DNA of 64,000 nucleotides from Fidelibacterota bacterium (GTDB taxonomy: Bacteria; Fidelibacterota; UBA2242; JAFGTP01), in NCBI GenBank assembly GCA_016934035.1, contig JAFGTP010000012.1, positions 11,879-75,878 on the forward strand, given 5' to 3'. A program made the translations under genes and the position numbers. Positions 14,494-56,648 of this stretch are shown here, in pieces. Under the pieces are notes generated by a model. That model ran no database searches, was not told the DNA's origin, and saw only the letters and a program-made list of their open reading frames with translations. Positions within the stretch are counted from its first letter, which is position 1. Every line of letters starts with the position of its first letter.

Positions 14494-14621
14494 GACAATA
14501 CAGCGATAAATTTACATGAGAACTCATTCTACTGACATAAAAATACAAATTACAATAAAGTCTGGTCTGTTTTAGATGCAGGCATTTTTTATTGTCACAA
14601 TCTAAACTCAAGGAGGTCAAT

Positions 14622-15761
14622 ATGATTGAAAAAAGCATGGTTTCAGAATTAACAAACTACAAAGAATCATCAAGTCCGGTTACTACTGCCTACATCACCG
14701 TTGACAATAACGCTGAAAACAGAGGAAAGCACATTATTGAACTGAAAAAAATGATCCAATATAAAAAAAGCACATCATATTTTAAAGAATTAAGCGAATC
14801 CGAACAATCATCGGTTATCAGGGATTTTGAAAAAATCCTGGAATGGGTCAAGAATAACTTTGATAATAAGGAGTACAATTCGGCTATTATATTCAGCTCA
14901 GAATCGACGGGGTATTGGAAAACAATTGTTTTAAAGCAAAAGATGGAAAACCTGATTGAAATACATATGAAGCCCTACATTCGGCCTTTGACGACACTTT
15001 TTGAAGATTCCAAAAAATATGCTGTCGTTCTGGTTGACAAGGCAAAAGGGCGCATTTTTGAATCAAATTATGGTGAATTCTCAGAAGTCTTCAATATTAA
15101 AGAAGAGGACTATGAATCAGCCATCACTGGCGGATATCGAGGTATGGAGGAGAGAAAAATCGAGCGCGCCAACCATAAGCAGGTGGTTGAACATTATAAA
15201 AAGATTTCAGATGAGCTTATGAAACTGGACCAGAAAAATAAATACAACTGGATTGTTGTAGGTGGAAGAAAGGAATCTGTCAATGAGTTTAAAGAATATC
15301 TGCACAGTTATGTAAAAACGAAAATTTCCGGAACCTTGTTTGTCGAGCCTTCGGCCAATATCAAAGAAGTTCTGGATGAAATTGAGAAGACAGAAAAAGA
15401 ATCCAGGATGCATTTTGAACAAAAATATCTTGAATTACTGAATGAGAAAAAACAACAGCTACTGGCCGCCGAAGGTGTGGAAGAAATCATTCAGGCCGCT
15501 AAAGCGCAACAGATCGACACGCTTTTCATCAAAGAAAATTTTAAAATAAAAGGAAAATATTGCAAACGGGATAGTTTTGTCACTACAGCCAATATCGATA
15601 AATGCCCGGAATGCGGCTCTCAGCTGGAAAGAACGGACGATTTGATCGAGCATATTTTGCATCTGACCATTCAACAGTCATCCAAAATAAAATATGTCAA
15701 TGGAACTTTTGATGAGCATGGCAAAATAGCGGCTTTTTTACGCTTTCCGCTGGTAAAATAA
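14622..15761 (+). CDS. Bacterial eRF1/Pelota-like protein (baeRF-type) with GGQ replaced by GGY and a CPEC zinc-ribbon-like insert
   Basis: The central and C-terminal regions align by eye with eRF1:
- YAVVLVDKAKGRIFES
- ITGGYRGMEERKIERANHKQVVEHY, matching [26 protein letters not shown]
- [14 protein letters not shown]
- [22 protein letters not shown]
- GKIAAFLRFP, matching GGIGGILRY
The true start is ATG 14622, with AAGGAGG 5 nt upstream. The track start at 14592 is a TTG. Confidence 0.7.
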   Translation: MIEKSMVSELTNYKESSSPVTTAYITVDNNAENRGKHIIELKKMIQYKKSTSYFKELSESEQSSVIRDFEKILEWVKNNFDNKEYNSAIIFSSESTGYWKTIVLKQKMENLIEIHMKPYIRPLTTLFEDSKKYAVVLVDKAKGRIFESNYGEFSEVFNIKEEDYESAITGGYRGMEERKIERANHKQVVEHYKKISDELMKLDQKNKYNWIVVGGRKESVNEFKEYLHSYVKTKISGTLFVEPSANIKEVLDEIEKTEKESRMHFEQKYLELLNEKKQQLLAAEGVEEIIQAAKAQQIDTLFIKENFKIKGKYCKRDSFVTTANIDKCPECGSQLERTDDLIEHILHLTIQQSSKIKYVNGTFDEHGKIAAFLRFPLVK

Positions 15762-15783
15762 TATTAGGTCCAATTAAAAACAG

Positions 15784-15822
15784 ATCTCGTGCAGTCTTGA
15801 GGGGTTGCACGAGATTTTTTTT
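15784..15822 (+). terminator. Rho-independent terminator
   Basis: ATCTCGTGCA (15784-15793) / TGCACGAGAT (15806-15815) followed by T8. Confidence 0.8.
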
Positions 15823-16246
15823 AAAGCTTAATTAATTAAAGAAATACTCCATTTAAAATAATATTGTTTATATAATTGTGTAAAAAAAACAGTAAAAAAC
15901 AGCAAGGTTTTATGAAATCGGGGTATTTGTGTAGAAAAAATATTTTGTGAGTGACAATCTGCATTACCGCCTTCAAAATGAAACAGCGATCATTATTTTG
16001 GGAAAATAAGAATAGGATGGTCTTTAAAAAAGATGAGTTATTTCTTTCAGGAAATGAAATTTTCAGAGAACAAGGTGTTAGCCCTTGCTGATAGTTCAGG
16101 CTAAAACTGCTGGTGTGGGATAAAAAATAAGGACGGCTTCAAAATTTATTGAATTTTATTGTTTTTTATTTGATAAATAACAAGAAATTGAGCCTGTTTT
16201 CATTATTGATTAGTATTTTCCGTAAAAAGGTTAGTATAATAAAATA

Positions 16247-16262
16247 TGTGATATGAATCACA
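16247..16262. promoter_or_regulatory. Perfect CRP/FNR-family type palindrome TGTGA-N6-TCACA
   Basis: TGTGAtatgaaTCACA, centred ~82 bp upstream of the start site predicted for the 16302-16330 promoter. Confidence 0.35.
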
Positions 16263-16301
16263 AAAATAATTAATGGTTATCATTTTGACGATAAAAATTA
16301 C

Positions 16302-16330
16302 TTGACAAGATGAAAAAAAAATTATAAAAT
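16302..16330 (+). promoter_or_regulatory. Candidate sigma-70 promoter P1 (TTGACA-N17-TAAAAT)
   Basis: Perfect -35 at 16302-16307, exact 17-bp spacer, and -10 TAAAAT at 16325-16330. Confidence 0.35.
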
Positions 16331-16526
16331 GAAAACCGTCGATATAAAATGAAATCAGCGAGTAAAATTAAGTTAGGAAAAAGGATTGTTTGTCAAAATT
16401 TTACTTGATTAACCGAAAAAAAAATGATAATGTACTTTGAATATTATTCGAAACTATTGTTTTGAATCCTTTTATTGCCGGAGAAAGCCGGCTGGCAATA
16501 AAAAAAATTATAGAGGAGAAAATCTC

Positions 16527-16555
16527 TTGACAACAACTGGTAATTTTAGTAATAT
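16527..16555 (+). promoter_or_regulatory. Candidate sigma-70 promoter P2 (TTGACA-N17-TAATAT)
   Basis: Perfect -35 at 16527-16532, 17-bp spacer, and -10 TAATAT at 16550-16555. It would give a ~155-nt leader for the giant gene. Confidence 0.35.
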
Positions 16556-16642
16556 TTGTATAATTTGACGCATACACATTATTTCATTAAGAGGAAAGTC
16601 AATTTTTATGGTATTTTTATGATTAAAATTAAAAGGAGGACA

Positions 16643-16723
16643 ATGAAGATCGAATCAAACGAAAATATTTTTTTAACCTTAAGACGTAAGTTAATTTCTA
16701 ATTTAGGAGGTATTGTATTATGA
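16643..16723 (+). CDS. Candidate 26-codon upstream ORF (MKIESNENIFLTLRRKLISNLGGIVL), stop overlapping the giant-gene start (ATGA)
   Basis: AAGGAGG at 16633-16639, 3 nt before the ATG. The TGA stop at 16721-16723 overlaps ATG 16720-16722. It falls below the ORF-track size cut-off. Confidence 0.25.
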   Translation: MKIESNENIFLTLRRKLISNLGGIVL

Positions 16724-19700
16724 AAAAGAGATTCTTGATTTCTCTTATGGTCGTAATGGCCATTTTCCTGTTTACTTCCAATGCTTTCGCTCAGCACACC
16801 ATTAAAATTTCTGGTAGAGCGGAGATGGACGGTATTCAGGCCAATCAAACAAGCCTTAGCTACACAGTTGAGGCAAGAATCAATTTGGGCGCAAGCTATT
16901 CATGGCTTCCTGTCACAGGCGCTGGTTTGAACTGGGACTGGGAAGACGATGTTGAAACAGACAGCTTCAGCGTTGAGATTGATTCCAATATGATCGATGG
17001 CGCTGATTCCATTCGAATCACACTTCGTCCCTTAACAGGTGTTTCTGCAACTCCGAGTTCATTGACATCCGCTATGGGCTACAGTGTTGGCTGGGGTGGA
17101 TTGTCCTTTGATTCAACTGCTGCAACCACCGATCAGGATTCAGTTTTCCAGGTTGCCACAACCGGCGGAAATCCTTTTGAATTCTTCTCTTTGCCGGAAG
17201 TTGCAACAGACAGTCTGGGTGTTTTACCAGACATGAATTATACACCCACAAGACTGGTTCTTGCCTGTCATGATTCTGTCGGTTCAACAGTTCTGGGCAG
17301 AGGCCTGAGAATTGATATCTCAATTGCCAATGACGCTGCCACTTATGGCGCTTCCCAGATCACAGAACTGAGAATTTCAGCCAGAGATTTTACAACCAAG
17401 GCTGCTATCGGCAACGATACCCTGGTTGTTCCCAAGAATGCTGCCAATGACAGTCTGTTCATCAGCGATGATATCGTTGGTGGCGGCACTACCTGGGATG
17501 CATTCCTGGATTCATTGGCTGCCAATGGTGCAACCCGTGTTGATTTCTCTGTTGCCATGATTAGTGTTAATGGCACCACAATGGCTACTATTGCCACAAC
17601 CAACGGCGTATGGATTGACAGAGAAGGCCCGGCCGCTCCGACTTATGATGACATTGTTATCAGAAATGCAGGCGGCACAGTTGTTGACTTCGGTCTGACT
17701 CCTTTGATGGAAGGTCAGGTTTATACAATCGAAGTTACTTCCACTGACGCGATTTCTTCACTGTCCGAAGCCAGCATCGTTTTCAACTATCATGGCGCTG
17801 CCAACGTGCTGGGGCTTCCTGCTGCCGGTTCACAGGCTACCCTTGATATGGACGACGCGGTTATTTCCGGCGCCGGCCATGTGATTACTTTTACTTTCAC
17901 ACCGGATGATGGTATCGGACAGACTCCTTTCTGGTATGCAATGCAGCTGAATATGGAATTCATCGATATCAACGGTAACGTAACTACAGCAATGAATGAC
18001 AATGTAACCCATTGGACATTGCTGAACAGAAACGTATTTGTAACTGGTGTTGAAATTTCCGATTATACAAAAGACCCGGATGATCCGGATACATTGGAAT
18101 GGGGCAATGTTTACAGAATCGTTGGTAACGACTTTGCTGTAGAACATATGGGCGCCACCATCAACTTTATTGCTCTGCGTGACGGTTTAGATGAAGAAGA
18201 TGGCGTTTTCGTCACAACACCCGGCTCAAACTGGTTTAAGCTGAATGGTGACGTACTCAGTGCATGTCTCATGGCTGGTGCATCAGACACAACCTTTGCT
18301 CCCGGCTGGCAATATTACATCATGGGTATGAATTCCATGAATGGCAATAATTACATTCCCTGGGGCGATGTCTTTGTTTCCAATTACGCTTATGACGGTG
18401 TTGACTCTCTGGGTTGGGCCGGCGTCAGAGACCTGGCCGGTAACCTGGCCGGAATGATTGACAGTATTTTTGTTCATGATTCAAGATATCCTGAATTAAC
18501 CATCATCTCCTTTGAAGGCGAAGATGTTGATACAGTCAACAGCTGGATCATTGCTGATACAGTATCCGGCGACAATATTCATGAACATACAGTATACATT
18601 AATGTTGATGCTGTAAAAGACACAAACGGCCTGGCCAAAGTCCAGATCTGGTACAGAAAACACGAAGAAGATCCGGCCTGCTATCCTGACAAATGTGAAT
18701 GGATCTTATTAACTACTGTTAATACAGACACTGTACCATGGCAGTTTGATGTTGATCTGAGTAAACTGAATTTCGAAGCACGTCGTTATCAGTTTGCCGC
18801 CATCGGTATTGATGACAGAGATGTTATCGGCAACTATTTTGGACCCAACAGGCAGCCCATCGAACCTCAGGCTGACCTCTATATCGAACGTGGCGAAGCT
18901 GCTCCGACAGGAACAATCGCTGCTGTTGTTACACCTTTTGAATTTGGCGGCACCAATAAAGTCCATTGGACTGTAGCTGATGATTTCTTTGTAAAAACTG
19001 CTTCTGTAACTTGTGCTGCAACCGGTCAGAACACAGCTCTTGCTGTTGCCGGAAAAGCCAGTGATGCTGCTGACCTGACTGTAACTGGTCTGACCACTGC
19101 TCATATCGGAACAAACCTGACATACGTTTTGACTGTCCAGGATTATTTTGGAACAGTTAGAACTTTCAACGTTGTGGTTCCTGTAGTTAATGAAGTTGTT
19201 GATGTTGTTATTGACAGTTTGAACAATGGCGTGCCAATGGTTGGCTGGCCATGGCCCGGCGATGCTTTCGATGATCTCGAAGATGAAGATTTGCCGGTTC
19301 ACATTCATGGCGACAGCGTCAATGTTTTCTTCACAGTTGATGATGCCAATACTCCGGTACAGCTTTGGACAAAAGTTGGTGTTGCCGGTACCTGGGCAAA
19401 ACTGGGTACTGCCGTAGCAGCCGGTGGATATTATCATAACTGGAATGTCAATGCTCTGACCGATGCTGATACAATCTATATCGGTGGTACATACAGCGCT
19501 TCCGGTTCAGACAAAATCGTTGCCGGAAACGTATTGAAAGTTGTTGTTGATCATTATGGCTTTGCAGCCGGTGATGTATCCTGCAACCTGACCGCCGGTC
19601 AGTATGTAACCAACACGACAGACATTACTGTTTCTACAACTTTAAATGACCTGGCCAATCCCTATACACTCAGTGGCAGCATGGGCTCAGCCAACTGGGG

Positions 19701-22700
19701 AAGCAAAGTCAATGATTTTGCTAATGGAAAAGCCGATGGTCCTCTGACTGTTTCCGTAACCGGAACAGATCTTTCTGTACCGAATGTAAACAATGGTTCT
19801 GCTACTCTGGTATCAGTTGTTGTTGATAATTTGGTTCCTGTAGTTGATGAATTCACTGTTAATGAAAAACCAATGTCCGTTGCTGAAATTTCAGCCGGCA
19901 ATGCAGTGTTTGAATTGACAGTATCCGACGCCGGATCCGGTATCGATGCGATTTTCGCCTATATCGAACTGGATTACGATGACGGTCAGACAGCCGAAGA
20001 TTCAGTGCTTTTTGAAGTAACCGGACTCGGTGGCCTGGATGAATATACTATCACCAACACCATTGATGTTTCTACCTGGGCAAAAGATACATTCCAGATT
20101 TACCTGGAAGTAACTGACAAATATGGCAGAACATTAGAAGACAACACTCATAAATTTTCAATTCTTGAAAACAATACACTTCCGATTCCTGTCATTGCTG
20201 CTATTGATGAACATGACCAGGAAAATGAAGATTGTTCTGTAACTCTGTATGCCTTCACAGGCCTCTGCCTGCCAAACAACTACCAGAAAGAACCTGATCA
20301 CCTGCGTTTTGAATACAAAAACGGTAACGGTGTTTGGATTGAATTCGGTAACGTTGATTTTGATGCTTCTACAGCCGGTCCTAACGGAAAATTCCGTGTA
20401 TGGCCGATTGAATTCAATTATGATTCAGAAGATGGCGGATACTATGATGAAGAAGTACGCGCTGTAGCTGTTTCCGATGCTTTTGAAGACGATATGGGCG
20501 AAACACCCTATCCGTTCTTAGAAGTTGCCGGTCCTGCATTAGTACCTCATACAGTTTACGACAACAACAGAAAAGCCATGAACGATGCTGATCAGAAACT
20601 CTATTCTGACAATGCTGTCGAATCTCCGACAAACGTTGTATTGGTTCTGACAGAATCCAACGAAAGTGGTCCTCAGGGCAACACCATCAATCATTTCCAA
20701 CTGGTATCTACTGAACTCATCAATGGTATGTACAGAGGAATGTTAGATGTTGAACCCAATTCAGTTCTTGCAGCTGCTCCCTCAGCCGGAACTGTAACTG
20801 TTTGGTCTTTCAGCTCTTACAACATCAATCAGCCGACTTTCACCTACACACTGAATGCCGGTGTCATGGATGTGACCAAATTGTATGATGCTCATGACCA
20901 GGTTGCTGTTTCTTACTGTGGCGCAATGACTGTTGAAGTTGATGCTTCAGCTATCAGCTCCGATGAACTGGTTTATTTTGAACCTTTCAGAAACAAAACC
21001 AGAAATGGTGTTCATATTCACACAACACTTGCGGATGAAATTGATGTTCCTTTTACCATGATTCACAATACAGACATCAGCGGCATGACACTGCCCGCTC
21101 TGAAAGTATGGCGCTGGGGTGAAAATGCTGACGGTATCATGACATGGTTGAATGAAGTTGAAATTGATACAGTACTGGATGACACTGTTTACGCCACGAG
21201 CGTTTCTGCTCAGGGCACAGGCTCTTTCATCGGTACTTTCAAAAACGACGCTATCTATGCTATTTCAGTATACGATGCCTACGTTCCTCCGACACCTTAC
21301 AGTGGTCCGGTTGCTAATTTCGCGCTGCTTGATTACAATGGCGCCGTTAACGGCCTCGATGATGATCATACCGGTTATGCTCCTCATAGTGTAATCTTTG
21401 GTATCTGCGGCAACGGAACTGACTGCGCTGGCGACAATATCTATTATACTTTAGCAAGTGGTCAGGGTGCCGGTGCTGCCAAAGATCATGAAATTACTTT
21501 CATTTTCGATGGCGAACATCAGATCACCTTCATGGCTGACGAATGTTGTAAAGATGTTGCATGGGAAGATAGCTATACCGGTCTGGTAGACAGTACCTAT
21601 GGCAATGCAATGTTTACTTACATGACTCCCGGCAGCTATGACGTTACCATGATCATCAATGATACAAAAGGTCACGGTGCAGACACATTGACAATTGAAG
21701 ATTTCATCATTGTTCATGACAAAGCCCTTGCTATTGACCTTGTAACCATGTTGCCTTCTTACTCCAATGCCGAAGGAAAAACTTATACAAGCAAAACTCC
21801 TTCCTTTGAAGTACAGGTTGTCTATCCGCAATCTGAAGAAAGCGAACTGAAAGCTCACGCTTTCCTGAATGGTCATCATGTACTGTTCCAGGATGCAACC
21901 AAAGAAGCCTTTGATTGGGTTGACTTTGCAAATCTTGAAGCTACACTGACCATTGAAAATGAAAGCGGCGAAGCGCTGAACAGATTCCTGAAAGAAGACG
22001 AAGCTAACGAAATTTACTTCGTAGTCTATGACGAAGCTGCCGGCCTGTCCGTCACTTCTGAAACTCTGACCTTCTGGCTGGATATGACAACTCCGTTGGT
22101 CGCATGCTATGATGAAGACGAAGACTGGATCCTCGGTACTCACGGCTCCAACTCTCATGATGTTTGGGTATTTGCCGAAGTCAAAGATCCTGAATCACTC
22201 ATCAGACTGACCAATTGTTCAATGACTATCGGTCAGAAAAATGATACCAATGACATCGTTACTTATGTTGGCGAAGCCTTCGATATCATCGAAGAATATG
22301 CTGATGGTTTTAAATTGAGAAAAGCCATCAATTTTGCTGACTTCAACCATGCAATCTGGGAAGATGAGACATTCTCCAATGATATGACCATCTCCTTTAC
22401 TTTTGCTAACAGATTAGGTATGACCACAACTGCAGAATATGACTTCTCTTTTGACTTACTTGATCCGATTGCCACTGTTGACGATGATGCATGGCCAATG
22501 GTACCGACCGATTCAATTCCTTATGACAACGACGGTGATTCACTTGCCAACGAAGATCCGATTGATGGTATCAACAACGACGGCGATTGGCACGATGTCA
22601 ACCTGAATGGAAGACGTGATTACTACTTCCAGACATGGTGTGAAGTTGTTTATGATTGCTGCGGTTATGTTGTAGATACAATCTGCCACAAAGAAGTAAT

Positions 22701-23364
22701 GCTTGAAGAAGAATATATTGATGAAGATCCGATTGACTGGGAATACACCTACTATCAGTATGAAGTAGATTGCAACAGCGGTCTGAGTCTGCATCTCTAT
22801 GCCTACGATCCAGAAGAATGTCGTGGCTCTTGCCAGGAACAGGAATACGGATCAGGCAATATCTGGTCAGCTGCTTCCGGTATTGACCATGAATCCTTCA
22901 AACTTTACCTGGACGGTGAATTATTAGACGCAACAATGGACGAAAATGGCGCAGTTGTTGGTGGCCAGGACAATATTCCTCACGGACACCATCAGATTAT
23001 GCTTTCTGTTTCTGACCATGCAGGTAGATCTGCTAATCCTTTAAGATTCAGAATCAAAGCTAACCATGACGTTGCGATTGTTGACGAACCTATCGCTCCT
23101 GAAAAGTTTGAACTGGGTGACAACTATCCGAACCCATTTAACCCAACAACAAACATCAAATTGTCTATTGCAAAACAGACTGATGTTACTCTGACTGTTT
23201 ATGACCTCATGGGTAAAAAAGTTAGAGAAATGAGCTGGACTAATATGGAAACCGGATACCATACAGTAAACTTCGACGCTCAAGGCTTGGCAACTGGTGT
23301 CTATATTTACACCTTGAAAGCCGGAAACTTCGTAGATACTAAAAAGATGATTCTTCTTAAGTAA
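16720..23364 (+). CDS. Giant (2214 aa) acidic secreted surface protein with T9SS C-terminal sorting domain; candidate S-layer/major surface protein
   Basis: AGGAGG RBS; signal peptide MKKRFLISLMVVMAIFLFTSNAFAQ; long Thr/Val/Asp/Gly-rich sequence with no recognisable catalytic motif; C-terminal CTD. Its codon usage differs from that of its neighbours. Confidence 0.85.
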   Translation: MKKRFLISLMVVMAIFLFTSNAFAQHTIKISGRAEMDGIQANQTSLSYTVEARINLGASYSWLPVTGAGLNWDWEDDVETDSFSVEIDSNMIDGADSIRITLRPLTGVSATPSSLTSAMGYSVGWGGLSFDSTAATTDQDSVFQVATTGGNPFEFFSLPEVATDSLGVLPDMNYTPTRLVLACHDSVGSTVLGRGLRIDISIANDAATYGASQITELRISARDFTTKAAIGNDTLVVPKNAANDSLFISDDIVGGGTTWDAFLDSLAANGATRVDFSVAMISVNGTTMATIATTNGVWIDREGPAAPTYDDIVIRNAGGTVVDFGLTPLMEGQVYTIEVTSTDAISSLSEASIVFNYHGAANVLGLPAAGSQATLDMDDAVISGAGHVITFTFTPDDGIGQTPFWYAMQLNMEFIDINGNVTTAMNDNVTHWTLLNRNVFVTGVEISDYTKDPDDPDTLEWGNVYRIVGNDFAVEHMGATINFIALRDGLDEEDGVFVTTPGSNWFKLNGDVLSACLMAGASDTTFAPGWQYYIMGMNSMNGNNYIPWGDVFVSNYAYDGVDSLGWAGVRDLAGNLAGMIDSIFVHDSRYPELTIISFEGEDVDTVNSWIIADTVSGDNIHEHTVYINVDAVKDTNGLAKVQIWYRKHEEDPACYPDKCEWILLTTVNTDTVPWQFDVDLSKLNFEARRYQFAAIGIDDRDVIGNYFGPNRQPIEPQADLYIERGEAAPTGTIAAVVTPFEFGGTNKVHWTVADDFFVKTASVTCAATGQNTALAVAGKASDAADLTVTGLTTAHIGTNLTYVLTVQDYFGTVRTFNVVVPVVNEVVDVVIDSLNNGVPMVGWPWPGDAFDDLEDEDLPVHIHGDSVNVFFTVDDANTPVQLWTKVGVAGTWAKLGTAVAAGGYYHNWNVNALTDADTIYIGGTYSASGSDKIVAGNVLKVVVDHYGFAAGDVSCNLTAGQYVTNTTDITVSTTLNDLANPYTLSGSMGSANWGSKVNDFANGKADGPLTVSVTGTDLSVPNVNNGSATLVSVVVDNLVPVVDEFTVNEKPMSVAEISAGNAVFELTVSDAGSGIDAIFAYIELDYDDGQTAEDSVLFEVTGLGGLDEYTITNTIDVSTWAKDTFQIYLEVTDKYGRTLEDNTHKFSILENNTLPIPVIAAIDEHDQENEDCSVTLYAFTGLCLPNNYQKEPDHLRFEYKNGNGVWIEFGNVDFDASTAGPNGKFRVWPIEFNYDSEDGGYYDEEVRAVAVSDAFEDDMGETPYPFLEVAGPALVPHTVYDNNRKAMNDADQKLYSDNAVESPTNVVLVLTESNESGPQGNTINHFQLVSTELINGMYRGMLDVEPNSVLAAAPSAGTVTVWSFSSYNINQPTFTYTLNAGVMDVTKLYDAHDQVAVSYCGAMTVEVDASAISSDELVYFEPFRNKTRNGVHIHTTLADEIDVPFTMIHNTDISGMTLPALKVWRWGENADGIMTWLNEVEIDTVLDDTVYATSVSAQGTGSFIGTFKNDAIYAISVYDAYVPPTPYSGPVANFALLDYNGAVNGLDDDHTGYAPHSVIFGICGNGTDCAGDNIYYTLASGQGAGAAKDHEITFIFDGEHQITFMADECCKDVAWEDSYTGLVDSTYGNAMFTYMTPGSYDVTMIINDTKGHGADTLTIEDFIIVHDKALAIDLVTMLPSYSNAEGKTYTSKTPSFEVQVVYPQSEESELKAHAFLNGHHVLFQDATKEAFDWVDFANLEATLTIENESGEALNRFLKEDEANEIYFVVYDEAAGLSVTSETLTFWLDMTTPLVACYDEDEDWILGTHGSNSHDVWVFAEVKDPESLIRLTNCSMTIGQKNDTNDIVTYVGEAFDIIEEYADGFKLRKAINFADFNHAIWEDETFSNDMTISFTFANRLGMTTTAEYDFSFDLLDPIATVDDDAWPMVPTDSIPYDNDGDSLANEDPIDGINNDGDWHDVNLNGRRDYYFQTWCEVVYDCCGYVVDTICHKEVMLEEEYIDEDPIDWEYTYYQYEVDCNSGLSLHLYAYDPEECRGSCQEQEYGSGNIWSAASGIDHESFKLYLDGELLDATMDENGAVVGGQDNIPHGHHQIMLSVSDHAGRSANPLRFRIKANHDVAIVDEPIAPEKFELGDNYPNPFNPTTNIKLSIAKQTDVTLTVYDLMGKKVREMSWTNMETGYHTVNFDAQGLATGVYIYTLKAGNFVDTKKMILLK
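22525..22857 (+). other. Asp-rich calcium-binding-like (TSP3-like DxDxDG) plus Cys-rich module inside the giant protein
   Basis: DNDGDSLANEDPIDGINNDGDWHDVNLNGRRD is followed by 8 Cys within ~90 aa (WCEVVYDCCGYVVDTICH...VDCNSG...ECRGSCQ). Confidence 0.4.
23098..23361 (+). other. T9SS type-A C-terminal sorting domain (CTD)
   Basis: PEKFELGDNYPNPFNPTTNIKLSI...VTLTVYDLMGKKV...GYHTVNFDAQGLATGVYIYTLKAGNFVDTKKMILLK. Confidence 0.85.
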
Positions 23365-23393
23365 TATTTTAAGAATAAAAATACCATCTTTCG

Positions 23394-23427
23394 AAAGGGG
23401 CTCGCTTAGCGGGTCCCTTTTGTTTTT
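23394..23427 (+). terminator. Rho-independent terminator of the giant gene
   Basis: 12-bp stem AAAGGGGCTCGC / GCGGGTCCCTTT (two G-U pairs) followed by TGTTTTT. Confidence 0.7.
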
Positions 23428-23793: not shown

Positions 23794-26700
23794 ATGAACA
23801 AGAAGTTAATGACTTTCATTTTATTTTGTCTGGTACTAGGCACCATCCTGTCTGCTTATGATAGTGCGGACAATTACAAACCGGCCAACTATGTACCGGC
23901 AGTAATTCAACATGAACCTATTGGACCGCAATATGCACCCATGTTGGTCGAACCACTTTCTGTACAAATTAACAGCATCAATATTCAAAAATGGCCTTTT
24001 GTTTATTTAAATGTCAATGTGGATACCAATGGAGCCGGAATAAATAGTCTTGATAAGAACAATTTTGAGGTTTATGAAGATGGTATCTTACAATCGGATT
24101 TGTTTGATGTACTCCCTCCCGCTTCCGGAGAAGGAAACAGGCTGGCAGATTTTATCTTCGTCCTGGATGTGTCCGGAAGTATGGGCGAAGAAATTGAAGC
24201 TGTCCGGCAAAATATGAGTGCTTTTCTGGATGCTCTTGCGAATTCCGGTATTAATTATAATGTCGGATTTGTTGTTTTTGCGGACCCGCATTATGTCTAC
24301 AATGATGGCTTTCTCTATTCAGATAAAAACCAAATTCAAAGTGTTATTGACAATATGGAACTGGGAGAGCATGATTTAGGATTGGGTGGTGATATTCCTG
24401 AAGACCAATTGGACGCCCTGGTGTCCGCTTCAGCCATGAATTTTCGACCTGGTGCGCAAAGAGTAGCCATTATGATTACTGATGCGCCGGCGCATACTTT
24501 TGCTGATGTCAATGGGAAATGGACCAATCAAACGGTTGATAGTTGTATTGAAGAGTTAATGGCACAATCCATAACCGTATATCCGGTTTTTGCAACAAGG
24601 GCGATCAATGGTATTCTGCAGGTTAATGTTGATAAACAGATCGAGCAATATATACCCATTGCACAGGCTACACAAACCGGATTATATTTCGATGTATGGG
24701 ATCCTTTTGATGAAATATTAAATACAATTTATGAAGTCATTGCCAATACATACCTGGTCAGATATTACTCAAATAATAACAGAACCTGTGATTATGACCG
24801 GTTTGTTGATGTCATTGTTGATTACCGGTTAGAACAGAACCACGATACGATTTCCTATACCATCGGAGCTGTTCCAATGATTGAAAGGACCCAGGCTACA
24901 CTGCAACTGCATAATAGTTCAAGACCCGAAAATGTCAGTTTTAATATTGATGTTACCATTACCGATGATGTGGCCCCCTTTACCCAATCAGCAGAACTGC
25001 TCTACAAAACATCTACCGGTACTTCTTTTAAAACAATGGCCTTTACTTATATTTCCGATAATCTTTGGAGGGCCACTGTACCGGCAGCGGATGTTGATTT
25101 TCCGGGGTTTGATTATTATATCACTGCAACGGATGGTCAATTTACCAGTACTTTGCCATCCATGGAACCCTATAAAAATCCTTTCCAATTAGCTGTCGGC
25201 ACCAATGAATTGCCGGTTGTGGATCACACACCTTTGGAATCTTATTCATATTTAAACACAGCCATTGCCATTTCGGCCAATGTGACTGATGCGACGGATA
25301 ATGTAGACAGGGTTGAACTTTATTATAAAAAATATGGACAGTTGCTTTATGATATGACAGAAATGACCAAATCCGGTGGAAATACCTACCTTTCAGAAAT
25401 TCCGTCCAATATTGTCACCACGGACGGATTTGAATATTTTATCAAAGCTGCAGATAACCATAATGTTGCCCGATATGTGGGCGATTATGATGCGCCGATT
25501 TTCGTCAGATGTGCTCTCACTCCTCCCGGGCATTTTACTGCCGAGTTGATTGATTCAACTGATGGTTTAGTTGAGCTGAAATGGCGTAAAGAAATTAATA
25601 ATGGCGGATTTTATGAAGATTTTGGCGACACGCTGATACCGGAATGGAAAATTGTCACCGGACAATGGCATGTAGCAGACGGCAATTTTAACACTTCCAA
25701 TTCAACGCATCAGCGCAATTCAGTATACTACAATGACTATTTTGAAAACTTCGTGCTGGAAGCCAGAATGAAAAGGTCTGGTGGTTCTCCTTATGGCATT
25801 GGTCTTTATTTTAATGGTGATCCGACAGAAGTGTCCGCCAGCGGTAAATGGGCCGATGGTTATGCTTTTACTTACTGTACAGCAGGAAACTGGGACCTCA
25901 TTGTTTATGAAAATGGTTACTCCAAAGCTATTCAGCCATTGGTTTGCAGTTCAGAAATTTTACAGGGTGATAATCAGTGGAACATATTAAAAGTAGTCTA
26001 TGCCTATGGATACATTGATGTCTATATTAATCATAAACTGCAGGGCAGTTATTTTGATGAGACCCATAAACGGGGCAGAATCGGCTTACATCTGCACGAT
26101 GATCAGTTAGCAGGTACCGCAGCCTTTGATTATGTTACTTTAACCCCTTTGCCGGACCAGTATTCCTTTGGAACCCTGCAATTGGCGGATCACCAATTCA
26201 GCATGATTTATGATCGTCAAAACCAGGAAATGACTACAGAAGAACTACCCAGTTTAAAACTGGCTCGCTGCAGCTATCCGACCTATGGATTGAATTTTCA
26301 ATATCTGGTCAAAAACAATGCTTATCTTACCGAAGAAGAACCGACATTTAAGTTCTTCAAGGTATACAGAGATAATTATTGTATTGCCGAATCCCACAAA
26401 TCCTATTATTATGATAATCTTGAAGTCAGTGGAACTTACAAATACAAAGTGACCTCTCTCTATGAAGAGGGTGAATCCAGACCTGCCGGCCCTGCTAAAA
26501 TCATTTGGGGTGAAGAAAACATTGTGGGCAGCACCTTCTCCGGAAATTTACTGTATCTGAATTCAAATGAACCTCTGGTGGGCGATACTTTAGAACTGAC
26601 AGGAGATCTGGATAATATTTCCATTACGGACGCCAATGGATTTTATCAATTCAAAGGGCTCTCCAGCCATACCATTGTAATGCCCAAGAAGACAGGTGAA

Positions 26701-27693
26701 ATTGGTAGTATCAATGGTCTGGATCTTCTCAGTCTCAAAAACCACCTGATGGGTACAAAAGTCCTGACCAACAATTCCAAGAAAGCGGCTGATTGTAATC
26801 TGGATTATAATATCAATGGCAATGATTTATTGCTGCTACAAAATTATTTATTGGGAAAAACTGTATCCGCACCCCTGGGTACCTGGGAATTCAATCCTGA
26901 AAAATATGAATATGAAATCATTGTCGGTGATATGCTCAATAAAAATTTCACGGCCTTTATCTATGGCGATGTCAATCTGAGCTGGAATGAAAGTGAAGCC
27001 CTGGCAAAAGAAATTTTTGCTCATCAGACCAATCTGGAATTTGATGACATGTATTTTTCTGACGGAGAATATCTCTATTTACCCCTTACCATTGACAATA
27101 GTCTGAAAATGGCTGTGATTGATTGGATGATTGAATACAATCCGGATGAATTGGAGTTTGTGGGCATTACAGGTCCGGTAAACTTTCAATCCAATATTGT
27201 TGATAAGGGCGTAAAAATCTCCTGGCTGTATGATGGCAGGGAAATCACGATTAACGAGAACCAAGCCCTGGCTGAATTGAAATTCATCATCAAGTCCTCA
27301 GCAAATACCACCACTGTCACATTTTCCGGCAATAGTCTGACGGCTGACAAAAATGAAAATGTTTATCATATCAATTATGCCTCCGGAAAATTAAATCTTA
27401 ACAAACAACTGAAAGAGGTTATTATTCCTGAAAAAACAGAGTTGTTTGCTAATTATCCGAATCCCTTTAATCCGTCTACCATGATCCGGTTTGGCCTGGC
27501 TGAAGATGCAAAAGTACATTTAGCAATCTATGATGTTCGCGGAAGATTGGTTGAGACTTTAGTAAATGAAAATAAAAATGCAGGTTATTATACGATCCAT
27601 TGGGACGCTTCAAAAATGGCTTCCGGTGTTTATATCTATAAATTGCAGACCAATAATTATAATGACATTAAAAAATGTATTTTTCTGAAATAA
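23794..27693 (+). CDS. 1299-aa secreted multidomain protein: vWA - repeated beta-sandwich modules - LamG/DUF1080-like - Fn3-like - dockerin-like - cohesin-like - T9SS CTD
   Basis: AGGGGG RBS, signal peptide, and the domain motifs listed in the sub-features below. Confidence 0.85.
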   Translation: MNKKLMTFILFCLVLGTILSAYDSADNYKPANYVPAVIQHEPIGPQYAPMLVEPLSVQINSINIQKWPFVYLNVNVDTNGAGINSLDKNNFEVYEDGILQSDLFDVLPPASGEGNRLADFIFVLDVSGSMGEEIEAVRQNMSAFLDALANSGINYNVGFVVFADPHYVYNDGFLYSDKNQIQSVIDNMELGEHDLGLGGDIPEDQLDALVSASAMNFRPGAQRVAIMITDAPAHTFADVNGKWTNQTVDSCIEELMAQSITVYPVFATRAINGILQVNVDKQIEQYIPIAQATQTGLYFDVWDPFDEILNTIYEVIANTYLVRYYSNNNRTCDYDRFVDVIVDYRLEQNHDTISYTIGAVPMIERTQATLQLHNSSRPENVSFNIDVTITDDVAPFTQSAELLYKTSTGTSFKTMAFTYISDNLWRATVPAADVDFPGFDYYITATDGQFTSTLPSMEPYKNPFQLAVGTNELPVVDHTPLESYSYLNTAIAISANVTDATDNVDRVELYYKKYGQLLYDMTEMTKSGGNTYLSEIPSNIVTTDGFEYFIKAADNHNVARYVGDYDAPIFVRCALTPPGHFTAELIDSTDGLVELKWRKEINNGGFYEDFGDTLIPEWKIVTGQWHVADGNFNTSNSTHQRNSVYYNDYFENFVLEARMKRSGGSPYGIGLYFNGDPTEVSASGKWADGYAFTYCTAGNWDLIVYENGYSKAIQPLVCSSEILQGDNQWNILKVVYAYGYIDVYINHKLQGSYFDETHKRGRIGLHLHDDQLAGTAAFDYVTLTPLPDQYSFGTLQLADHQFSMIYDRQNQEMTTEELPSLKLARCSYPTYGLNFQYLVKNNAYLTEEEPTFKFFKVYRDNYCIAESHKSYYYDNLEVSGTYKYKVTSLYEEGESRPAGPAKIIWGEENIVGSTFSGNLLYLNSNEPLVGDTLELTGDLDNISITDANGFYQFKGLSSHTIVMPKKTGEIGSINGLDLLSLKNHLMGTKVLTNNSKKAADCNLDYNINGNDLLLLQNYLLGKTVSAPLGTWEFNPEKYEYEIIVGDMLNKNFTAFIYGDVNLSWNESEALAKEIFAHQTNLEFDDMYFSDGEYLYLPLTIDNSLKMAVIDWMIEYNPDELEFVGITGPVNFQSNIVDKGVKISWLYDGREITINENQALAELKFIIKSSANTTTVTFSGNSLTADKNENVYHINYASGKLNLNKQLKEVIIPEKTELFANYPNPFNPSTMIRFGLAEDAKVHLAIYDVRGRLVETLVNENKNAGYYTIHWDASKMASGVYIYKLQTNNYNDIKKCIFLK
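24136..24690 (+). other. von Willebrand factor type A domain with MIDAS motif
   Basis: DFIFVLDVSGSMGEEIEAVRQNMSAFLDAL (DxSxS at 24166-24180), followed by ...AIMITDAPAH... Confidence 0.8.
25603..26145 (+). other. Concanavalin-A-like lectin (LamG / DUF1080-like) domain
   Basis: EWKIVTGQWHVADGNF...YFENFVLEARMKR...GIGLYFNG...GYAFTY...IDVYINHKLQG...GRIGLH. Confidence 0.55.
26707..26862 (+). other. Dockerin-like duplicated segment (first Ca loop degenerate, second intact)
   Basis: SINGLDLLSLKNHLMG ... DCNLDYNINGNDLLLLQNYLLG. The second segment fits D-x-N-x-D-x-x-I-N-x-x-D followed by a helix ending LLG. Confidence 0.55.
27070..27402 (+). other. Cohesin-like module
   Basis: YLYLPLTIDNSLKMAVIDWMIEYNPDELEFVGITGP...GVKISWLYDG...ALAELKFIIKSSANTTTVTFSG...ASGKLNL. 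It follows the same pattern as the three modules of the next gene. Confidence 0.55.
27421..27690 (+). other. T9SS type-A CTD
   Basis: IIPEKTELFANYPNPFNPSTMIRFGL...VHLAIYDVRGRLV...GYYTIHWDASKMASGVYIYKLQTNNYNDIKKCIFLK. Confidence 0.85.
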
Positions 27694-27705
27694 ATAGGTG
27701 CTATT

Positions 27706-29268
27706 ATGAAAATCTATAAAATTATTTTAGCATTTATTATCTCGATAACTTTCGGGTTTGGTGTAACACTGGACCTGAGAGTCAATGAAATAACCGGGCT
27801 CGTTGGCAATGAGGTGGAACTTGCAATCGTTACAGAAAATGGATTCTCGAACGTTGCCATGATGGAACTTGAATTGCTTTTTGACGACACAAAAATGACT
27901 TTTTTAAATAGTGAAAGCAGTCTGTTGTCCAGTGCCAATATCAATGCCAGCAACGGTGTTTTGAAAATTGTCTGGATCTATACCAGCAACATGATGGCGC
28001 TGGCTTCAGGCGATACACTGGCCAAATTGAGTTTTGATGTTTTGCCGTCAAACAATCAAACCGGCGATTATCTGACCCTGAGTTTCACAGATAAATGTAT
28101 GGCCAGTGATAAAGATGAAAACCTTTTTGACATGACTTTGGTTAATGGCGGTATCCATGTGACGGAAAATACGATATTTTTCTCGATACCCAGAGTCGTC
28201 AAATATGACAATACCAGTGTATCAGTACCGGTTATTGTGAATTATGGTTTTGATAATGTCGCCATGGTTGAATTGCATATTGCTTTTGATCAGACCAAAT
28301 TGACCTATAACAGTATCACAAGTTCTTACATCAATGCCGAAAATGTCAATTTGATCGGCAATGTGCTGACTATTCTCTGGGTCTACGAAGGGACGTCGAT
28401 GAATATTGCTGATAACCAAGATTTACTGAGCATCAATTTTACTGCGAATATGCCTGAAGGTTCAGAATCCTTTGCGTCGGTCAGGTTTGTGGGTGAAAAT
28501 AATGTCAGCGATGCCGATGCCTATCCATTTATGCTCTTATTTAAGGATGGCGGGGTGTTAAATTTTGATACCAGTTCGATGCTCATCACGATACCCTCTG
28601 TTACTGGCTATGATAACAAACCGGTTACGGTTCCCATGGTCGTGGATTACAGTGTGACCAATGTCGGGTCAATTCAACTATATGTTAATTATGATGATGA
28701 AAATATGGATTATTCGGGAATGGAAAGTGCCTACTTGTCCAGTTCCAATGTAACCCGGAATGGAAATACGATTACGATCAGTTGGTCAAGCGGAACAGGA
28801 ATTAATTTTTCTGACAATGACACATTGGTAAAATTCAATTTCAATGTGGACCTGACCAGTGACGTTGTTAATTTCGTTCCGGTAACTTTTACTGGTGAAA
28901 ACAGTGTCAGTGATGCCAGCGGAAATCCTTTTCAGCTGTATCTGGATGATGGTGGTGTCAACATTGAAGAGTGGGTCAGTGGATTAGATCAGGATATTAT
29001 TATACGGGAATTCAAATTATACCAGAATTATCCAAATCCTTTTAATCCAACCACAACGATAAGTTTTGATCTGGCCGAATCTGCCACAATCAACCTCAGT
29101 ATTTACAACCTTAGCGGAGAATTGCTGCAAACCCTGGTCAATTCCAGGCTGGATAATGGGCATCATCGCATTAAATGGCAGGCCGGGAATTTTTCATCAG
29201 GAATTTATATCTACAGATTACAGTCCGACGGTTTCCATGAAACCCAAAAATGTATTTTGATGAAATAA
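27706..29268 (+). CDS. 520-aa secreted protein with three tandem cohesin-like modules and a T9SS CTD (candidate surface scaffold)
   Basis: It starts 12 nt after the previous stop with an AGGTG RBS. It has a signal peptide, three mutually alignable ~130-aa modules, and the CTD YQNYPNPFNPTTTISFDL...SGIYIYRLQSDGFHETQKCILMK. Confidence 0.85.
   Translation: MKIYKIILAFIISITFGFGVTLDLRVNEITGLVGNEVELAIVTENGFSNVAMMELELLFDDTKMTFLNSESSLLSSANINASNGVLKIVWIYTSNMMALASGDTLAKLSFDVLPSNNQTGDYLTLSFTDKCMASDKDENLFDMTLVNGGIHVTENTIFFSIPRVVKYDNTSVSVPVIVNYGFDNVAMVELHIAFDQTKLTYNSITSSYINAENVNLIGNVLTILWVYEGTSMNIADNQDLLSINFTANMPEGSESFASVRFVGENNVSDADAYPFMLLFKDGGVLNFDTSSMLITIPSVTGYDNKPVTVPMVVDYSVTNVGSIQLYVNYDDENMDYSGMESAYLSSSNVTRNGNTITISWSSGTGINFSDNDTLVKFNFNVDLTSDVVNFVPVTFTGENSVSDASGNPFQLYLDDGGVNIEEWVSGLDQDIIIREFKLYQNYPNPFNPTTTISFDLAESATINLSIYNLSGELLQTLVNSRLDNGHHRIKWQAGNFSSGIYIYRLQSDGFHETQKCILMK
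27763..28968 (+). repeat. Three tandem ~130-aa cohesin-like protein modules (approx. 27763-28160, 28171-28564, 28574-28968)
   Basis: The three modules align with each other:
- GFSNVAMMELELLFDDTKMTFLNSES...NGVLKIVWIY...LAKLSFDV
- GFDNVAMVELHIAFDQTKLTYNSITS...GNVLTILWVY...LLSINFTA
- VTNVGSIQLYVNYDDENMDYSGMES...GNTITISWSS...LVKFNFNV. Confidence 0.6.
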
Positions 29269-32388: not shown

Positions 32389-32401
32389 ATTTATGCCTCT
32401 G

Positions 32402-37802: not shown

Positions 37803-37923
37803 TTTTTTTCGATCTCGTGATTTAGTCAACAAGGTTACACTTTTAAAATACAAAAGTTTTCCAATTTATTCTAAAAATTCCTCCCTTCCATCAAAGACTT
37901 GAGGGAAAGATGAAAGACGGGGC

Positions 37924-37961
37924 AAAAAAAAAGGCTGCAAAAATTATGGCAGCCTTTTTTT
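37924..37961 (-). terminator. Rho-independent terminator of the 1117-aa gene (A/T tracts on both sides)
   Basis: AAAGGCTGC-aaaaattatg-GCAGCCTTT with an A9 run before it and a T7 run after it on the plus strand. It lies 15 nt after the stop at 37976. Confidence 0.7.
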
Positions 37962-37975
37962 AATGATTTTGGTAT

Positions 37976-41278: not shown

Positions 41279-41707
41279 TTTCGCTCCCCTTTTTAATTTA
41301 TTTATTTTTAATGTTTTGTCTGAAAACATGGTGCAATCTAATTCAACTAATTGTTCATATTAAAATTTTAACACAGTAATTCTCTAAAAATCACTATTGT
41401 TGATATATTATAAAACAAATATCAATATATCAATCAAATTTTTAAATATTCCCGACTAGGTTTTTTAGAAAAAATATGAATTTTATTTAAATAAAATTCA
41501 GAGGGCAATAATTGTTTTGAGAAAAGGTTCCTGTCGTTCCGAATTTGATGAAGAATCTCTTCAAGGGAAAGTCAAGATTATTGCTCTTGCGCCGAAAGGA
41601 AAGGAGGACGGTGAAATTTGATTTTGGCCCTAAGGCCCAATGAAATGACAAGCGGGTCTTTTATTGTCCTTCCAATGGGCCCAAATACGGGGTGTATTAT
41701 TTCATTA

Positions 41708-56198: not shown

Positions 56199-56648
56199 TT
56201 AATATTTTTCCCGAAACAGTGCCAGGATGGCCGAATGAGGAATGATGATATAGGTATGGTTTTCAATTTCTACTTCTACGCCGGCTTTTTTAATGAAGAT
56301 GGCATAATCACCAACTTTAGCCTGAAGAGGAATATACTCAGGCTCCGGGGCATCCTCGGCTGATTCCCAGGGTTCAAAGTCTTCTTCCTCTTCGCCCCAG
56401 GACTGAATATAACCCGGGCCGGTCTGTATGATGAAGCCACCCTGAACTTTTTCTTTTTGCTTTACGCCGGGTGGCAGGTAAAGTCCGCCGGCTGATTGCT
56501 GCTGGTCTTTGCTGGGATCGATCAGCACTTTATCACCGATCAATATAATTTCTCTGTCTTTAAAATCTGTCAATTGATTACCTTCTTCTGAAAATTGTTG
56601 TTTTAAAAATCGTGCCTCAAATTTTGCTAAAAATCTGGAATTATTCAA
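56199..56648 (-). CDS. GroES/Cpn10-like protein with N-terminal extension and acidic insertion
   Basis: ILIGDKVLIDPSKDQQQSAGGLYLPPGVKQKEKVQGGFIIQTGPG ... AKVGDYAIFIKKAGVEVEIENHTYIIIPHSAILALF aligns by eye with GroES. The track start is a TTG without an RBS. An alternative TTG at 56573 (GAAGG upstream) would give a more GroES-like N-terminus. Confidence 0.55.
   Translation of the reverse strand: MNNSRFLAKFEARFLKQQFSEEGNQLTDFKDREIILIGDKVLIDPSKDQQQSAGGLYLPPGVKQKEKVQGGFIIQTGPGYIQSWGEEEEDFEPWESAEDAPEPEYIPLQAKVGDYAIFIKKAGVEVEIENHTYIIIPHSAILALFREKY

What the first reader, a model, noticed from the sequence alone, without database searches (positions are those of the whole stretch)
16720..23364. Giant 2214-aa CTD protein looks like a highly expressed S-layer-type major surface protein
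- **Isolated transcription unit.** The gene sits between two strong terminators (15784-15822 and 23394-23427). It is preceded by a ~900-bp AT-rich non-coding region with two consensus-like promoters, a long leader and a perfect AGGAGG RBS.
- **Distinct codon usage.** Of the first 13 Arg codons I read, 10 are AGA, with the rest CGT or CGA. The adjacent 23794 gene and the sigma-54 regulator gene mix CGG, AGG, CGA, CGC and AGA. The gene also looks more GC-rich by eye. Strong codon bias plus these expression signals is what highly expressed surface-layer genes show.
- **Protein character.** It is acidic, Thr/Val/Asp/Gly-rich, and has no catalytic motif I can see. It ends in a T9SS CTD, the export and anchoring route used by the Tannerella forsythia S-layer proteins TfsA and TfsB.
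Basis: partly seen in the sequence, partly recalled or inferred. Interest (0 to 1): 0.62.

Follow-up and report, generated by a model that had tools for sequence, protein, structure and literature searches.

The report
Highly expressed giant T9SS surface protein
An uncultured sediment bacterium devotes most of its detectable local transcription to one 2,214-residue acidic protein of unknown fold that is exported to the cell surface, so it is probably the cell's main coat protein, although a crystalline S-layer has not been shown.

Summary
ORF 16720-23364 encodes a 239-kDa, pI 4.1 protein with a signal peptide and a type-A T9SS sorting domain. It sits between two strong terminators, behind the longest (958 bp, 27% GC) spacer in the window. 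Its codon bias is the strongest of about 32 ORFs, but GC3 is not raised.

In seven sediment metatranscriptomes from five studies, RNA contigs lie almost only on this gene, while DNA coverage is flat. A 74%-identical orthologue in a second species shows the same pattern in four more runs.

New findings:
- The roughly 430 bp upstream are near-invariant between species whose proteins are only 70-81% identical.
- Four RNA assemblies share a 5' end 76 nt upstream of the ATG.
- The protein body has almost no relatives among billions of proteins. It has a few orthologues and one 23%-identical homologue in a Guaymas MAG.

"S-layer" itself remains unproven. There is no similarity to any S-layer protein, AlphaFold failed, and there are no proteome or imaging data. 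Best reading: the major T9SS-anchored surface coat protein of a Fidelibacterota-like bacterium, possibly an S-layer.

The parts
15782..15817 (+). Intrinsic-terminator-like hairpin ending the upstream baeRF gene, which insulates the unit
   Evidence: 16-bp stem plus T-run. A hairpin is kept at the same place in L031 with a different sequence.
15762..16719 (+). 958-bp, 27% GC non-coding spacer, the longest in the window
   Evidence: The orthologue has a 752-bp spacer at 24% GC, and the distant homologue a 769-bp spacer at 27% GC.
16302..16330 (+). Promoter-like box P1, TTGACA-17-TAAAAT, preceded by an A-tract
   Evidence: 11/12 match. One mismatch to L031/L032 across the surrounding ~50 nt.
16405..16431 (+). 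P1-like box, TTGATT-15-GATAAT, with the same A-rich spacer; weaker spacing
   Evidence: Read from the sequence. Conserved in L031/L032. Not called by the scan tool.
16527..16555 (+). Promoter-like box P3, TTGACA-17-TAATAT
   Evidence: 10/12 match. Both hexamers are identical in L031/L032; three spacer positions differ.
16392..16811 (+). Ultraconserved control region: 85-100% nucleotide identity to the orthologous locus, with a 93-100% core at 16512-16751
   Evidence: There are 4 mismatches in the 160 nt before the ATG, while flanking CDS is 55-80% identical and the proteins 70-81%.
16643..16723 (+). 26-codon upstream ORF (MKIESNENIFLTLRRKLISNLGGIVL*) behind AAGGAGG; its stop overlaps the main ATG (ATGA). 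Probably not translated from the stable RNA.
   Evidence: Read. It has 3 substitutions in the orthologue, 2 of them non-synonymous. The RNA 5' end falls at its start codon.
16644..16719 (+). 76-nt A/U-rich, unstructured mRNA leader; a common RNA 5' end lies at 16644
   Evidence: RNA contigs of X6 and X8 begin at 16644. Contigs of X14 and X17 begin at the equivalent L031:5396. Fold z-score +0.37. No Rfam match.
16705..16710 (+). Shine-Dalgarno sequence AGGAGG, 9 nt before the ATG
16720..23364 (+). CDS of the 2214-aa giant surface protein
   Evidence: Purifying selection: 60 of 80 listed strain differences fall on codon position 3.
16720..16791 (+). Sec signal peptide, residues 1-24, with an AFA|Q cleavage site
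   Evidence: Read. The N-terminal 150 residues are 89-92% conserved.
17794..17985 (+). Weak Big_2-like Ig domain, residues 359-422
   Evidence: it matches the repeats of a Big_2 protein (P0012) at about 29% identity.
21385..21696 (+). Borderline PKD domain, residues 1556-1659; absent from the distant homologue
   Evidence: 23.9 bits against a cutoff of 23.5. One search shows a gap here in P0011.
22525..22737 (+). D/N-rich block resembling calcium-binding loops (DNDGD, NNDGD, DVNLNGRRD, IDEDPID), residues 1936-2006
   Evidence: Conserved even in the 23%-identical homologue. No dockerin or TSP3 model matches.
23125..23352 (+). T9SS type-A C-terminal sorting domain, residues 2136-2211
   Evidence: Pfam PF18962 at 43.1 bits; TIGR04183 at 43.7 bits against a cutoff of 23. 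PDB 8glj_D.
23392..23422 (+). Strong intrinsic terminator; RNA coverage stops here
   Evidence: It is kept in L035 with compensatory stem changes.

Best explanation
The gene encodes the principal cell-surface coat protein of an uncultured FCB-group sediment bacterium close to Fidelibacterota/Marinisomatota.

Proposed path of the protein:
- The precursor crosses the inner membrane by Sec, using its signal peptide.
- The type-IX secretion system recognises it through its type-A C-terminal domain and moves it across the outer membrane.
- The CTD is cut off, and the mature polypeptide of about 230 kDa is linked to surface lipopolysaccharide. There it forms a dense outer layer that is acidic, beta-rich, probably stabilised by Ca2+ and possibly O-glycosylated. 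This layer may be a true S-layer.

How the high demand for subunits is met:
- An insulated single-gene unit between two terminators.
- An ultraconserved control region of about 430 bp with stacked sigma-70-like boxes.
- A short, unstructured A/U-rich leader with a perfect Shine-Dalgarno sequence.
- Very strong codon optimisation.

Shown: gene structure, signals, codon bias, conservation and dominant transcript level.
Inferred: T9SS export, LPS anchoring, coat formation, lattice, Ca2+ binding and glycosylation.

I put about 0.8 on 'major abundant T9SS-anchored surface protein' and about 0.35-0.4 on 'regular 2-D S-layer'. The overall confidence given (0.65) is for the coat-protein statement as a whole.
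For: Expression:
- RNA contigs of X3-X9 (7 runs, 5 studies) lie on 16644-23340.
- In X3, X4 and X6, which were laid on the whole window, there is essentially nothing genuine on the other 57 kb.
- In the same-site run X5 the gene has about 20% breadth at up to 14x depth. The rest of the window has about 2.6% breadth at 2-4x.
- DNA coverage is flat at 16.8x.
- This replicates in a second species (L031): four more runs cover only the giant gene.
- The distant homologue is seen in a 9-Mb vent metatranscriptome.

Codon bias:
- It is the strongest in the window.
- It is conserved in the orthologue even though that genome's GC3 is 0.20 against about 0.45 here.

Surface targeting:
- The gene has a signal peptide plus a TIGR04183 CTD.
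- Five other CTD cargo genes lie in the window.
- CTD-protein expansions are known in this phylum (PMC5596340).

Coat-like properties:
- pI 4.1, no repeats and no enzyme domain.
- The D-[ST]-[AILVMT] sequon is enriched 2-fold (z = 4), and 18 of 24 sites are kept in orthologues.

Precedents:
- The T. forsythia S-layer proteins are T9SS cargo (PMC4175972).
- S-layer genes typically combine strong or multiple promoters, stabilising leaders and biased codons (PMC3666127).
Against: - There is no similarity outside the CTD to TfsA/TfsB or to any named S-layer family.
- Both AlphaFold attempts failed (pLDDT 33 and 31), so no lattice-type or Ig-array fold is shown.
- There are no proteomic or imaging data.
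- The only cultured member of the phylum is described with an outer membrane and LPS, and no S-layer is mentioned (PMC11652737).
- The protein has 22 cysteines, which is more than most S-layer proteins.
- The RNA evidence rests on assembled contigs, not read counts. The runs were also chosen because they hold this gene, so only within-run comparisons are fair.
- No ribosomal-protein genes were available to calibrate codon adaptation.
Confidence: 0.65

Rival explanations
1. It is a giant T9SS-delivered adhesin that attaches cells to particles, minerals or other cells, or a gliding adhesin like SprB. On this reading it is not a continuous coat.
For: - It has Ig-like (Big_2-like, PKD) pieces and Ca-loop-like motifs.
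- The downstream neighbours carry VWA, dockerin and cohesin adhesion modules with CTDs.
- Giant T9SS adhesins are well known in Bacteroidota (own knowledge).
Against: - It has no internal repeats at all, whereas giant adhesins are usually highly repetitive.
- Its CTD is type A, not the type B used by SprB.
- Transcript dominance and near-maximal codon optimisation fit a stoichiometric structural protein better than an adhesin.
- It is a separate transcription unit from the cohesin/dockerin genes.
Confidence: 0.2
2. It is a highly expressed secreted or surface enzyme, or a substrate-binding protein for polymer degradation, whose catalytic domain is too divergent to be recognised.
For: - About 85% of the sequence matches no profile, so an unknown enzyme cannot be excluded.
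- Many T9SS cargoes in this window and phylum are hydrolase-like (PMC5596340).
Against: - Pfam, NCBIfam and PDB sequence or profile searches find no catalytic family or motif.
- The composition and pI are coat-like.
- Enzymes rarely dominate a cell's mRNA pool across twelve unrelated samples.
Confidence: 0.1
3. The codon bias and RNA signal are artefacts. The gene would be a recently acquired foreign gene, and the RNA hits would be DNA carry-over or cross-mapping.
For: Its codon usage differs from its neighbours. Short CTD-like pieces do cross-map between genes.
Against: - The same gene order is found in a second species.
- The bias is conserved in a genome with very different GC3, and GC3 is unchanged here.
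- The RNA contigs are full-length, 100% identical matches spread over the whole gene, while DNA coverage is flat across the neighbours.
Confidence: 0.02

Closest known systems
[quoted passage not shown]
   Same: Both are large, acidic surface proteins with a Sec signal peptide and a T9SS C-terminal domain. TfsA and TfsB are major cell proteins whose surface layer disappears in porK, porT and sov mutants, and they are O-glycosylated at D-[ST]-x sequons (PMC4175972). The protein here is enriched in the same sequon.
   Different: - There is no detectable sequence similarity outside the CTD.
- It is one 239-kDa chain in a single-gene unit, not two co-transcribed proteins of 133 and 151 kDa.
- It belongs to a different phylum (Fidelibacterota-like, not Bacteroidota).
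- Lattice formation and glycosylation are untested here.
Expression architecture of classical S-layer genes (e.g. Lactobacillus slpA)
   Same: S-layer genes are known for strong or tandem promoters, a 5' untranslated leader that contributes to long mRNA half-life, biased codon usage and a single-gene unit (PMC3666127). All the sequence-level counterparts are present here.
   Different: - The leader here is unstructured (z = +0.4 to +1.5). The stabilising leaders described for slpA form a 5' hairpin.
- The stable leader here is only 76 nt.
- The organism is diderm, and the protein is anchored by T9SS rather than by cell-wall binding domains.
Giant T9SS adhesins such as Flavobacterium johnsoniae SprB (own knowledge)
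   Same: Very large T9SS-exported cell-surface proteins rich in beta/Ig-like structure.
   Different: SprB-type proteins are highly repetitive and use a type-B CTD. This protein has no internal repeats and a type-A CTD.

Membership tests
S-layer protein (functional class) | Self-assembles into a regular two-dimensional lattice that covers the cell | not testable with these tools
   This needs EM, cryo-ET or in-vitro assembly. The structure models were unusable (pLDDT 33 and 31).
S-layer protein (functional class) | Among the most abundant products of the cell | tested here: met
   Met at RNA level only. It is the dominant transcript of the 64-kb window in 7 runs and of the orthologous locus in 4 more. 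Its rank against ribosomal genes and its protein level are not measured.
S-layer protein (functional class) | Secreted and attached to the outermost envelope layer | tested here: met
   It has a signal peptide and a type-A T9SS sorting domain above the curated cutoff. Attachment itself is inferred.
S-layer protein (functional class) | Typical composition: acidic pI, rich in Thr, Ser, Ala, Val and Asp, few Cys | tested here: inconclusive
   pI 4.1 and D/T/V/A/G-rich, but with 22 Cys (1.0%). Composition is not specific to S-layers.
TfsA/TfsB family (Tannerella S-layer) | Sequence homology of the mature region | tested here: not met
   No named family matches outside the CTD in Pfam or NCBIfam. 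Database hits outside the family cover only the CTD. TfsA/TfsB sequences were not compared directly.
T9SS type-A cargo | C-terminal Por_Secre_tail/TIGR04183 domain at the extreme C-terminus, plus an N-terminal Sec signal | tested here: met
   TIGR04183 scores 43.7 bits against a cutoff of 23, at residues 2136-2211 of 2214. PF18962 scores 43.1 bits.
T9SS type-A cargo | The host encodes the T9SS machinery (PorK/L/M/N, Sov, PorU/V) | not testable with these tools
   None of these genes lies in the window. Six CTD cargo genes in 64 kb argue indirectly for a T9SS.
Dockerin-bearing cellulosome-type component (partner of the neighbouring cohesin proteins) | Dockerin type I module | tested here: not met
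   The D/N-rich block gives no Dockerin_1 or TSP_3 hit even at E<=10.
SprB-like gliding adhesin | Highly repetitive architecture and a type-B CTD | tested here: not met
   Self-BLAST finds no internal repeat. The CTD matches the type-A model.

The most novel reading that the evidence does not exclude
A previously unrecognised family of T9SS-anchored proteins of about 2,000-2,200 residues forms a true S-layer on uncultured Fidelibacterota/Cloacimonadota-like bacteria. Its mRNA would be among the most abundant bacterial messages in anoxic marine and freshwater sediments. Expression would be driven by an ultraconserved cassette of about 430 bp that yields a defined, possibly processed, 76-nt leader.
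Probability: 0.35. Interest if true: 0.75.

Novelty: new variant of a known kind. Interest (0 to 1): 0.62.

Why it matters
- T9SS-dependent S-layers are documented only in Tannerella. A sequence-unrelated, single-chain giant counterpart in another FCB phylum would show that the T9SS is a general route for building cell coats.
- It would also give a molecular handle (antibodies, FISH-correlated cryo-ET, phage-receptor studies) on abundant but uncultured sediment bacteria.
- The gene is detectable in very small metatranscriptomes from many sites, so it may be one of the major unannotated messages in sediment RNA data.
- The control region is invariant across species whose genomic GC3 differs by about 0.25. 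It is a candidate strong expression element for FCB-group bacteria.

Tried and rejected
- **Homology searches.** The word-indexed searches (full length, body without the CTD, family profile) found only the protein itself and CTD-only hits. Exhaustive HMMER on residues 26-1225 found only one orthologue fragment, one distant homologue and a Big_2 repeat protein.
- **GTDB genomes.** The protein found nothing. The family alignment had no stretch conserved enough to search with. The leader used as a DNA probe found nothing.
- **PDB.** Sequence and profile searches matched only the CTD.
- **AlphaFold.** The N-terminal half from a single sequence gave pLDDT 33. The C-terminal half with a 4-row alignment gave pLDDT 31. 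No fold search was run, because it would be meaningless.
- **Leader as riboswitch or structured RNA.** Rejected. There is no Rfam hit, and the fold is no better than shuffled sequence.
- **Dockerin hypothesis for the Ca-like block.** No support.
- **Codon calibration against ribosomal genes.** None lie on the accessible contigs. A Cpn10-like gene ranks only 4th of 31 in similarity to the giant gene's codon profile.
- **Foreign-gene explanation for the codon bias.** Rejected.
- **Literature.** No paper on this protein or on S-layers in this phylum was found.
Full report
**Observation**

The window holds a 6,645-nt ORF (16720-23364, +) encoding 2,214 residues.
- It begins with a classical signal peptide (MKKRFLISLMVVMAIFLFTSNAFA|Q).
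- It ends in a T9SS type-A sorting domain at residues 2136-2211. PF18962 scores 43.1 bits, and TIGR04183 scores 43.7 bits against a cutoff of 23.
- It is bracketed by the two best terminator-like hairpins of the region, at 15782-15817 and 23392-23422.
- It is preceded by a 958-bp, 27% GC spacer, the longest intergenic region in the window.
- Two sigma-70-like boxes (16302-16330, 11/12; 16527-16555, 10/12) and an AGGAGG 9 nt before the ATG are present. Only two of 32 genes have so long a Shine-Dalgarno match.

**Codon usage**

- The gene has the lowest ENC of the window, 41.9.
- Of its 45 Arg codons, 41 are AGA or CGT.
- It virtually lacks ATA, CTA, AGG, CGG, CGA, GGG, GCG/ACG/TCG, GTG and GAG. 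It prefers GCT, GGT, GTT, ACT/ACA, CCT, TCT and TTC, with per-amino-acid p values down to 1e-21.
- A rare-codon set makes up 2.3% of its codons, against 7.7-12.6% elsewhere.
- GC3 (0.40) is not raised.
- No other gene of the window approaches this profile.
- Calibration against ribosomal-protein genes was impossible, because none lie on the accessible contigs.

**Expression**

- Seven sediment metatranscriptomes from five studies hold the gene, including 454 cDNA runs of only 3-4 Mb.
- Laid on the window, their contigs fall on 16644-23340 and stop at the terminator.
- For X3-X6, which were laid on the whole window, the remaining 57 kb gives nothing genuine in three runs. In the same-site run X5 it gives a few short contigs at 2-4x depth. 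The giant gene in X5 has about 20% breadth at up to 14x.
- DNA coverage in the source metagenome is flat at 16.8x, so this is RNA and not carry-over.
- Caveats: these are assembled contigs, not read counts. The runs were also found through this gene, so only within-run contrasts count.

**Relatives**

- The organism is an uncultured FCB-group bacterium. Its CysS is 74-76% identical to unnamed MAGs and 67% identical to a 'Candidatus Neomarinimicrobiota' MAG. NCBI now files that name under Fidelibacterota.
- The protein body has almost no relatives. Three word-indexed searches of 5.8 billion clusters returned only CTD matches.
- Exhaustive HMMER over 1.84 billion representatives found an orthologue fragment (P0010) and one collinear 2,051-aa homologue (P0011). 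BLASTP segments to P0011 are 24-28% identical, and identity is 23% overall. P0011 comes from a Guaymas Basin MAG labelled Cloacimonadota.
- A second species carries a 74%-identical full-length orthologue in the same gene order: SLT, amidohydrolase, baeRF, then the giant gene.
- In that species, with a genomic GC3 of about 0.20, the gene is again the most codon-biased. Its ENC is 34.8 against 43-45 for neighbours, and its rare codons are 1.7% against 6-8%.
- It is again the only transcribed gene of its locus, in four further metatranscriptomes.
- The distant homologue also sits behind a 769-bp AT-rich spacer and is seen in a 9-Mb vent metatranscriptome.
- Strain variants at 90-95% identity differ mainly at third codon positions, 60 of 80 listed differences. 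The frame is therefore under purifying selection.

**Control region (new)**

- Between the two species, the flanking proteins are 70-81% identical and the coding DNA 55-80%.
- In contrast, 16392-16811 is 85-100% identical, and 16512-16751 is 93-100% identical. There are 4 mismatches in the 160 nt before the ATG.
- All promoter-like boxes lie in conserved blocks.
- The leader matches no Rfam family and folds no better than shuffled sequence. It is therefore an unstructured A/U-rich leader, not a riboswitch or a stabilising hairpin.
- Four independent RNA assemblies share the same 5' end, 76 nt upstream of the ATG. This is window 16644 in X6 and X8, and L031:5396 in X14 and X17. No contig covers the stretch between box P3 and that point.
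- Either the -76 end is a processing site of transcripts started further upstream, or the true promoter is not of the scanned type. This is unresolved.

**The protein**

- The mature mass is 239 kDa and the pI is 4.1. D, T, V, A and G are the most abundant residues. There are no internal repeats and 22 Cys.
- The only recognisable pieces are a weak Big_2-like domain (359-422), a borderline PKD (1556-1659, absent from the distant homologue) and the CTD.
- A D/N-rich block (1936-2006: DNDGD, NNDGD, DVNLNGRRD, IDEDPID) is conserved even in the 23%-identical homologue. It looks like a set of Ca2+-binding loops but matches no dockerin or TSP3 model.
- The Bacteroidota O-glycosylation sequon D-[ST]-[AILVMT] occurs 26 times against 12.8 expected (z = 4). 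It is concentrated in the N-terminal half, and 18 of 24 testable sites are kept in orthologues. This is suggestive only.
- Conservation is mosaic. Residues 1-150, 1051-1275, 1951-2025 and the CTD are most conserved. Residues 301-375, 601-675 and 901-1050 are most variable.
- Both AlphaFold runs failed, with pLDDT 33 and 31. The fold is unknown, and no fold search was justified.

**Interpretation**

The data strongly support a very highly expressed, T9SS-exported, surface-anchored structural protein. They are what one expects of an S-layer gene.
- The T. forsythia S-layer proteins use the same export route and are major glycoproteins (PMC4175972).
- S-layer genes classically combine strong or multiple promoters, special leaders and codon bias (PMC3666127).

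A regular lattice is the defining feature of an S-layer, and it could not be tested.
- There is no homology to any S-layer family.
- The only cultured member of the phylum is described with an outer membrane and LPS, with no S-layer mentioned (PMC11652737).

I therefore commit to 'major T9SS-anchored coat protein' (about 0.8) and treat 'true S-layer' as plausible (about 0.35-0.4). The main rival is a giant adhesin. The complete lack of repeats, the type-A CTD and the transcript dominance disfavour it. A cryptic enzyme cannot be excluded while the fold is unknown.

Noticed in passing
window 16631-16723: A 26-codon upstream ORF sits behind a strong AAGGAGG, and its stop overlaps the main start codon (ATGA). 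The shared RNA 5' end (16644) falls on its start codon, so its ribosome-binding site would not be on the stable RNA. It could be a relic, a leaderless mini-ORF, or part of a processing signal.
   Followed up: partly
window 23794-29268 (+): Two T9SS-CTD proteins lie directly downstream. One carries VWA, dockerin and cohesin modules; the other carries three cohesins. This suggests a cohesin-dockerin surface scaffold anchored by T9SS in an FCB-group bacterium. They are barely transcribed in the same runs.
   Followed up: partly
window 34134-41329 (-) and 51329-55216 (-): Three more large T9SS cargo genes lie here (cadherin-like, BNR-associated, beta-helix/disaggregatase-like), giving six CTD proteins in 64 kb. 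The cadherin-like one is also strongly enriched in the D-[ST]-[AILVMT] sequon (22 observed against 6.3 expected).
   Followed up: partly
window 32402-34063 (-): A protein with four PEGA domains. Its ORF overlaps the upstream end of the FGE-sulfatase/fn3 gene (29809-32460) by 59 nt. Its role was not examined.
   Followed up: no
window 14592-15761 (+): A bacterial eRF1-like (baeRF family 10) gene lies directly upstream. It is kept next to the giant gene in the second species (81% identity). Its function is unknown.
   Followed up: no
L033 1-170: The first 170 bases of the Guaymas contig, upstream of the distant homologue, are a very high-copy element. Depth is 3,000-6,700x against about 20x for the rest, and a ~30-nt direct repeat is present.
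   Followed up: no
window 16392-16811 vs L031/L035: The two species differ in genomic GC3 by about 0.25 (roughly 0.45 against 0.20), yet they share an almost identical control region. Contigs in X14 and X17 carry the same leader joined to still more divergent coding sequence.
   Followed up: partly
window 56199-56648 (-): A Cpn10 (GroES-family) gene of 149 codons with an unusual acidic insertion. It was not in my first ORF list because it is shorter than 150 aa.
   Followed up: no
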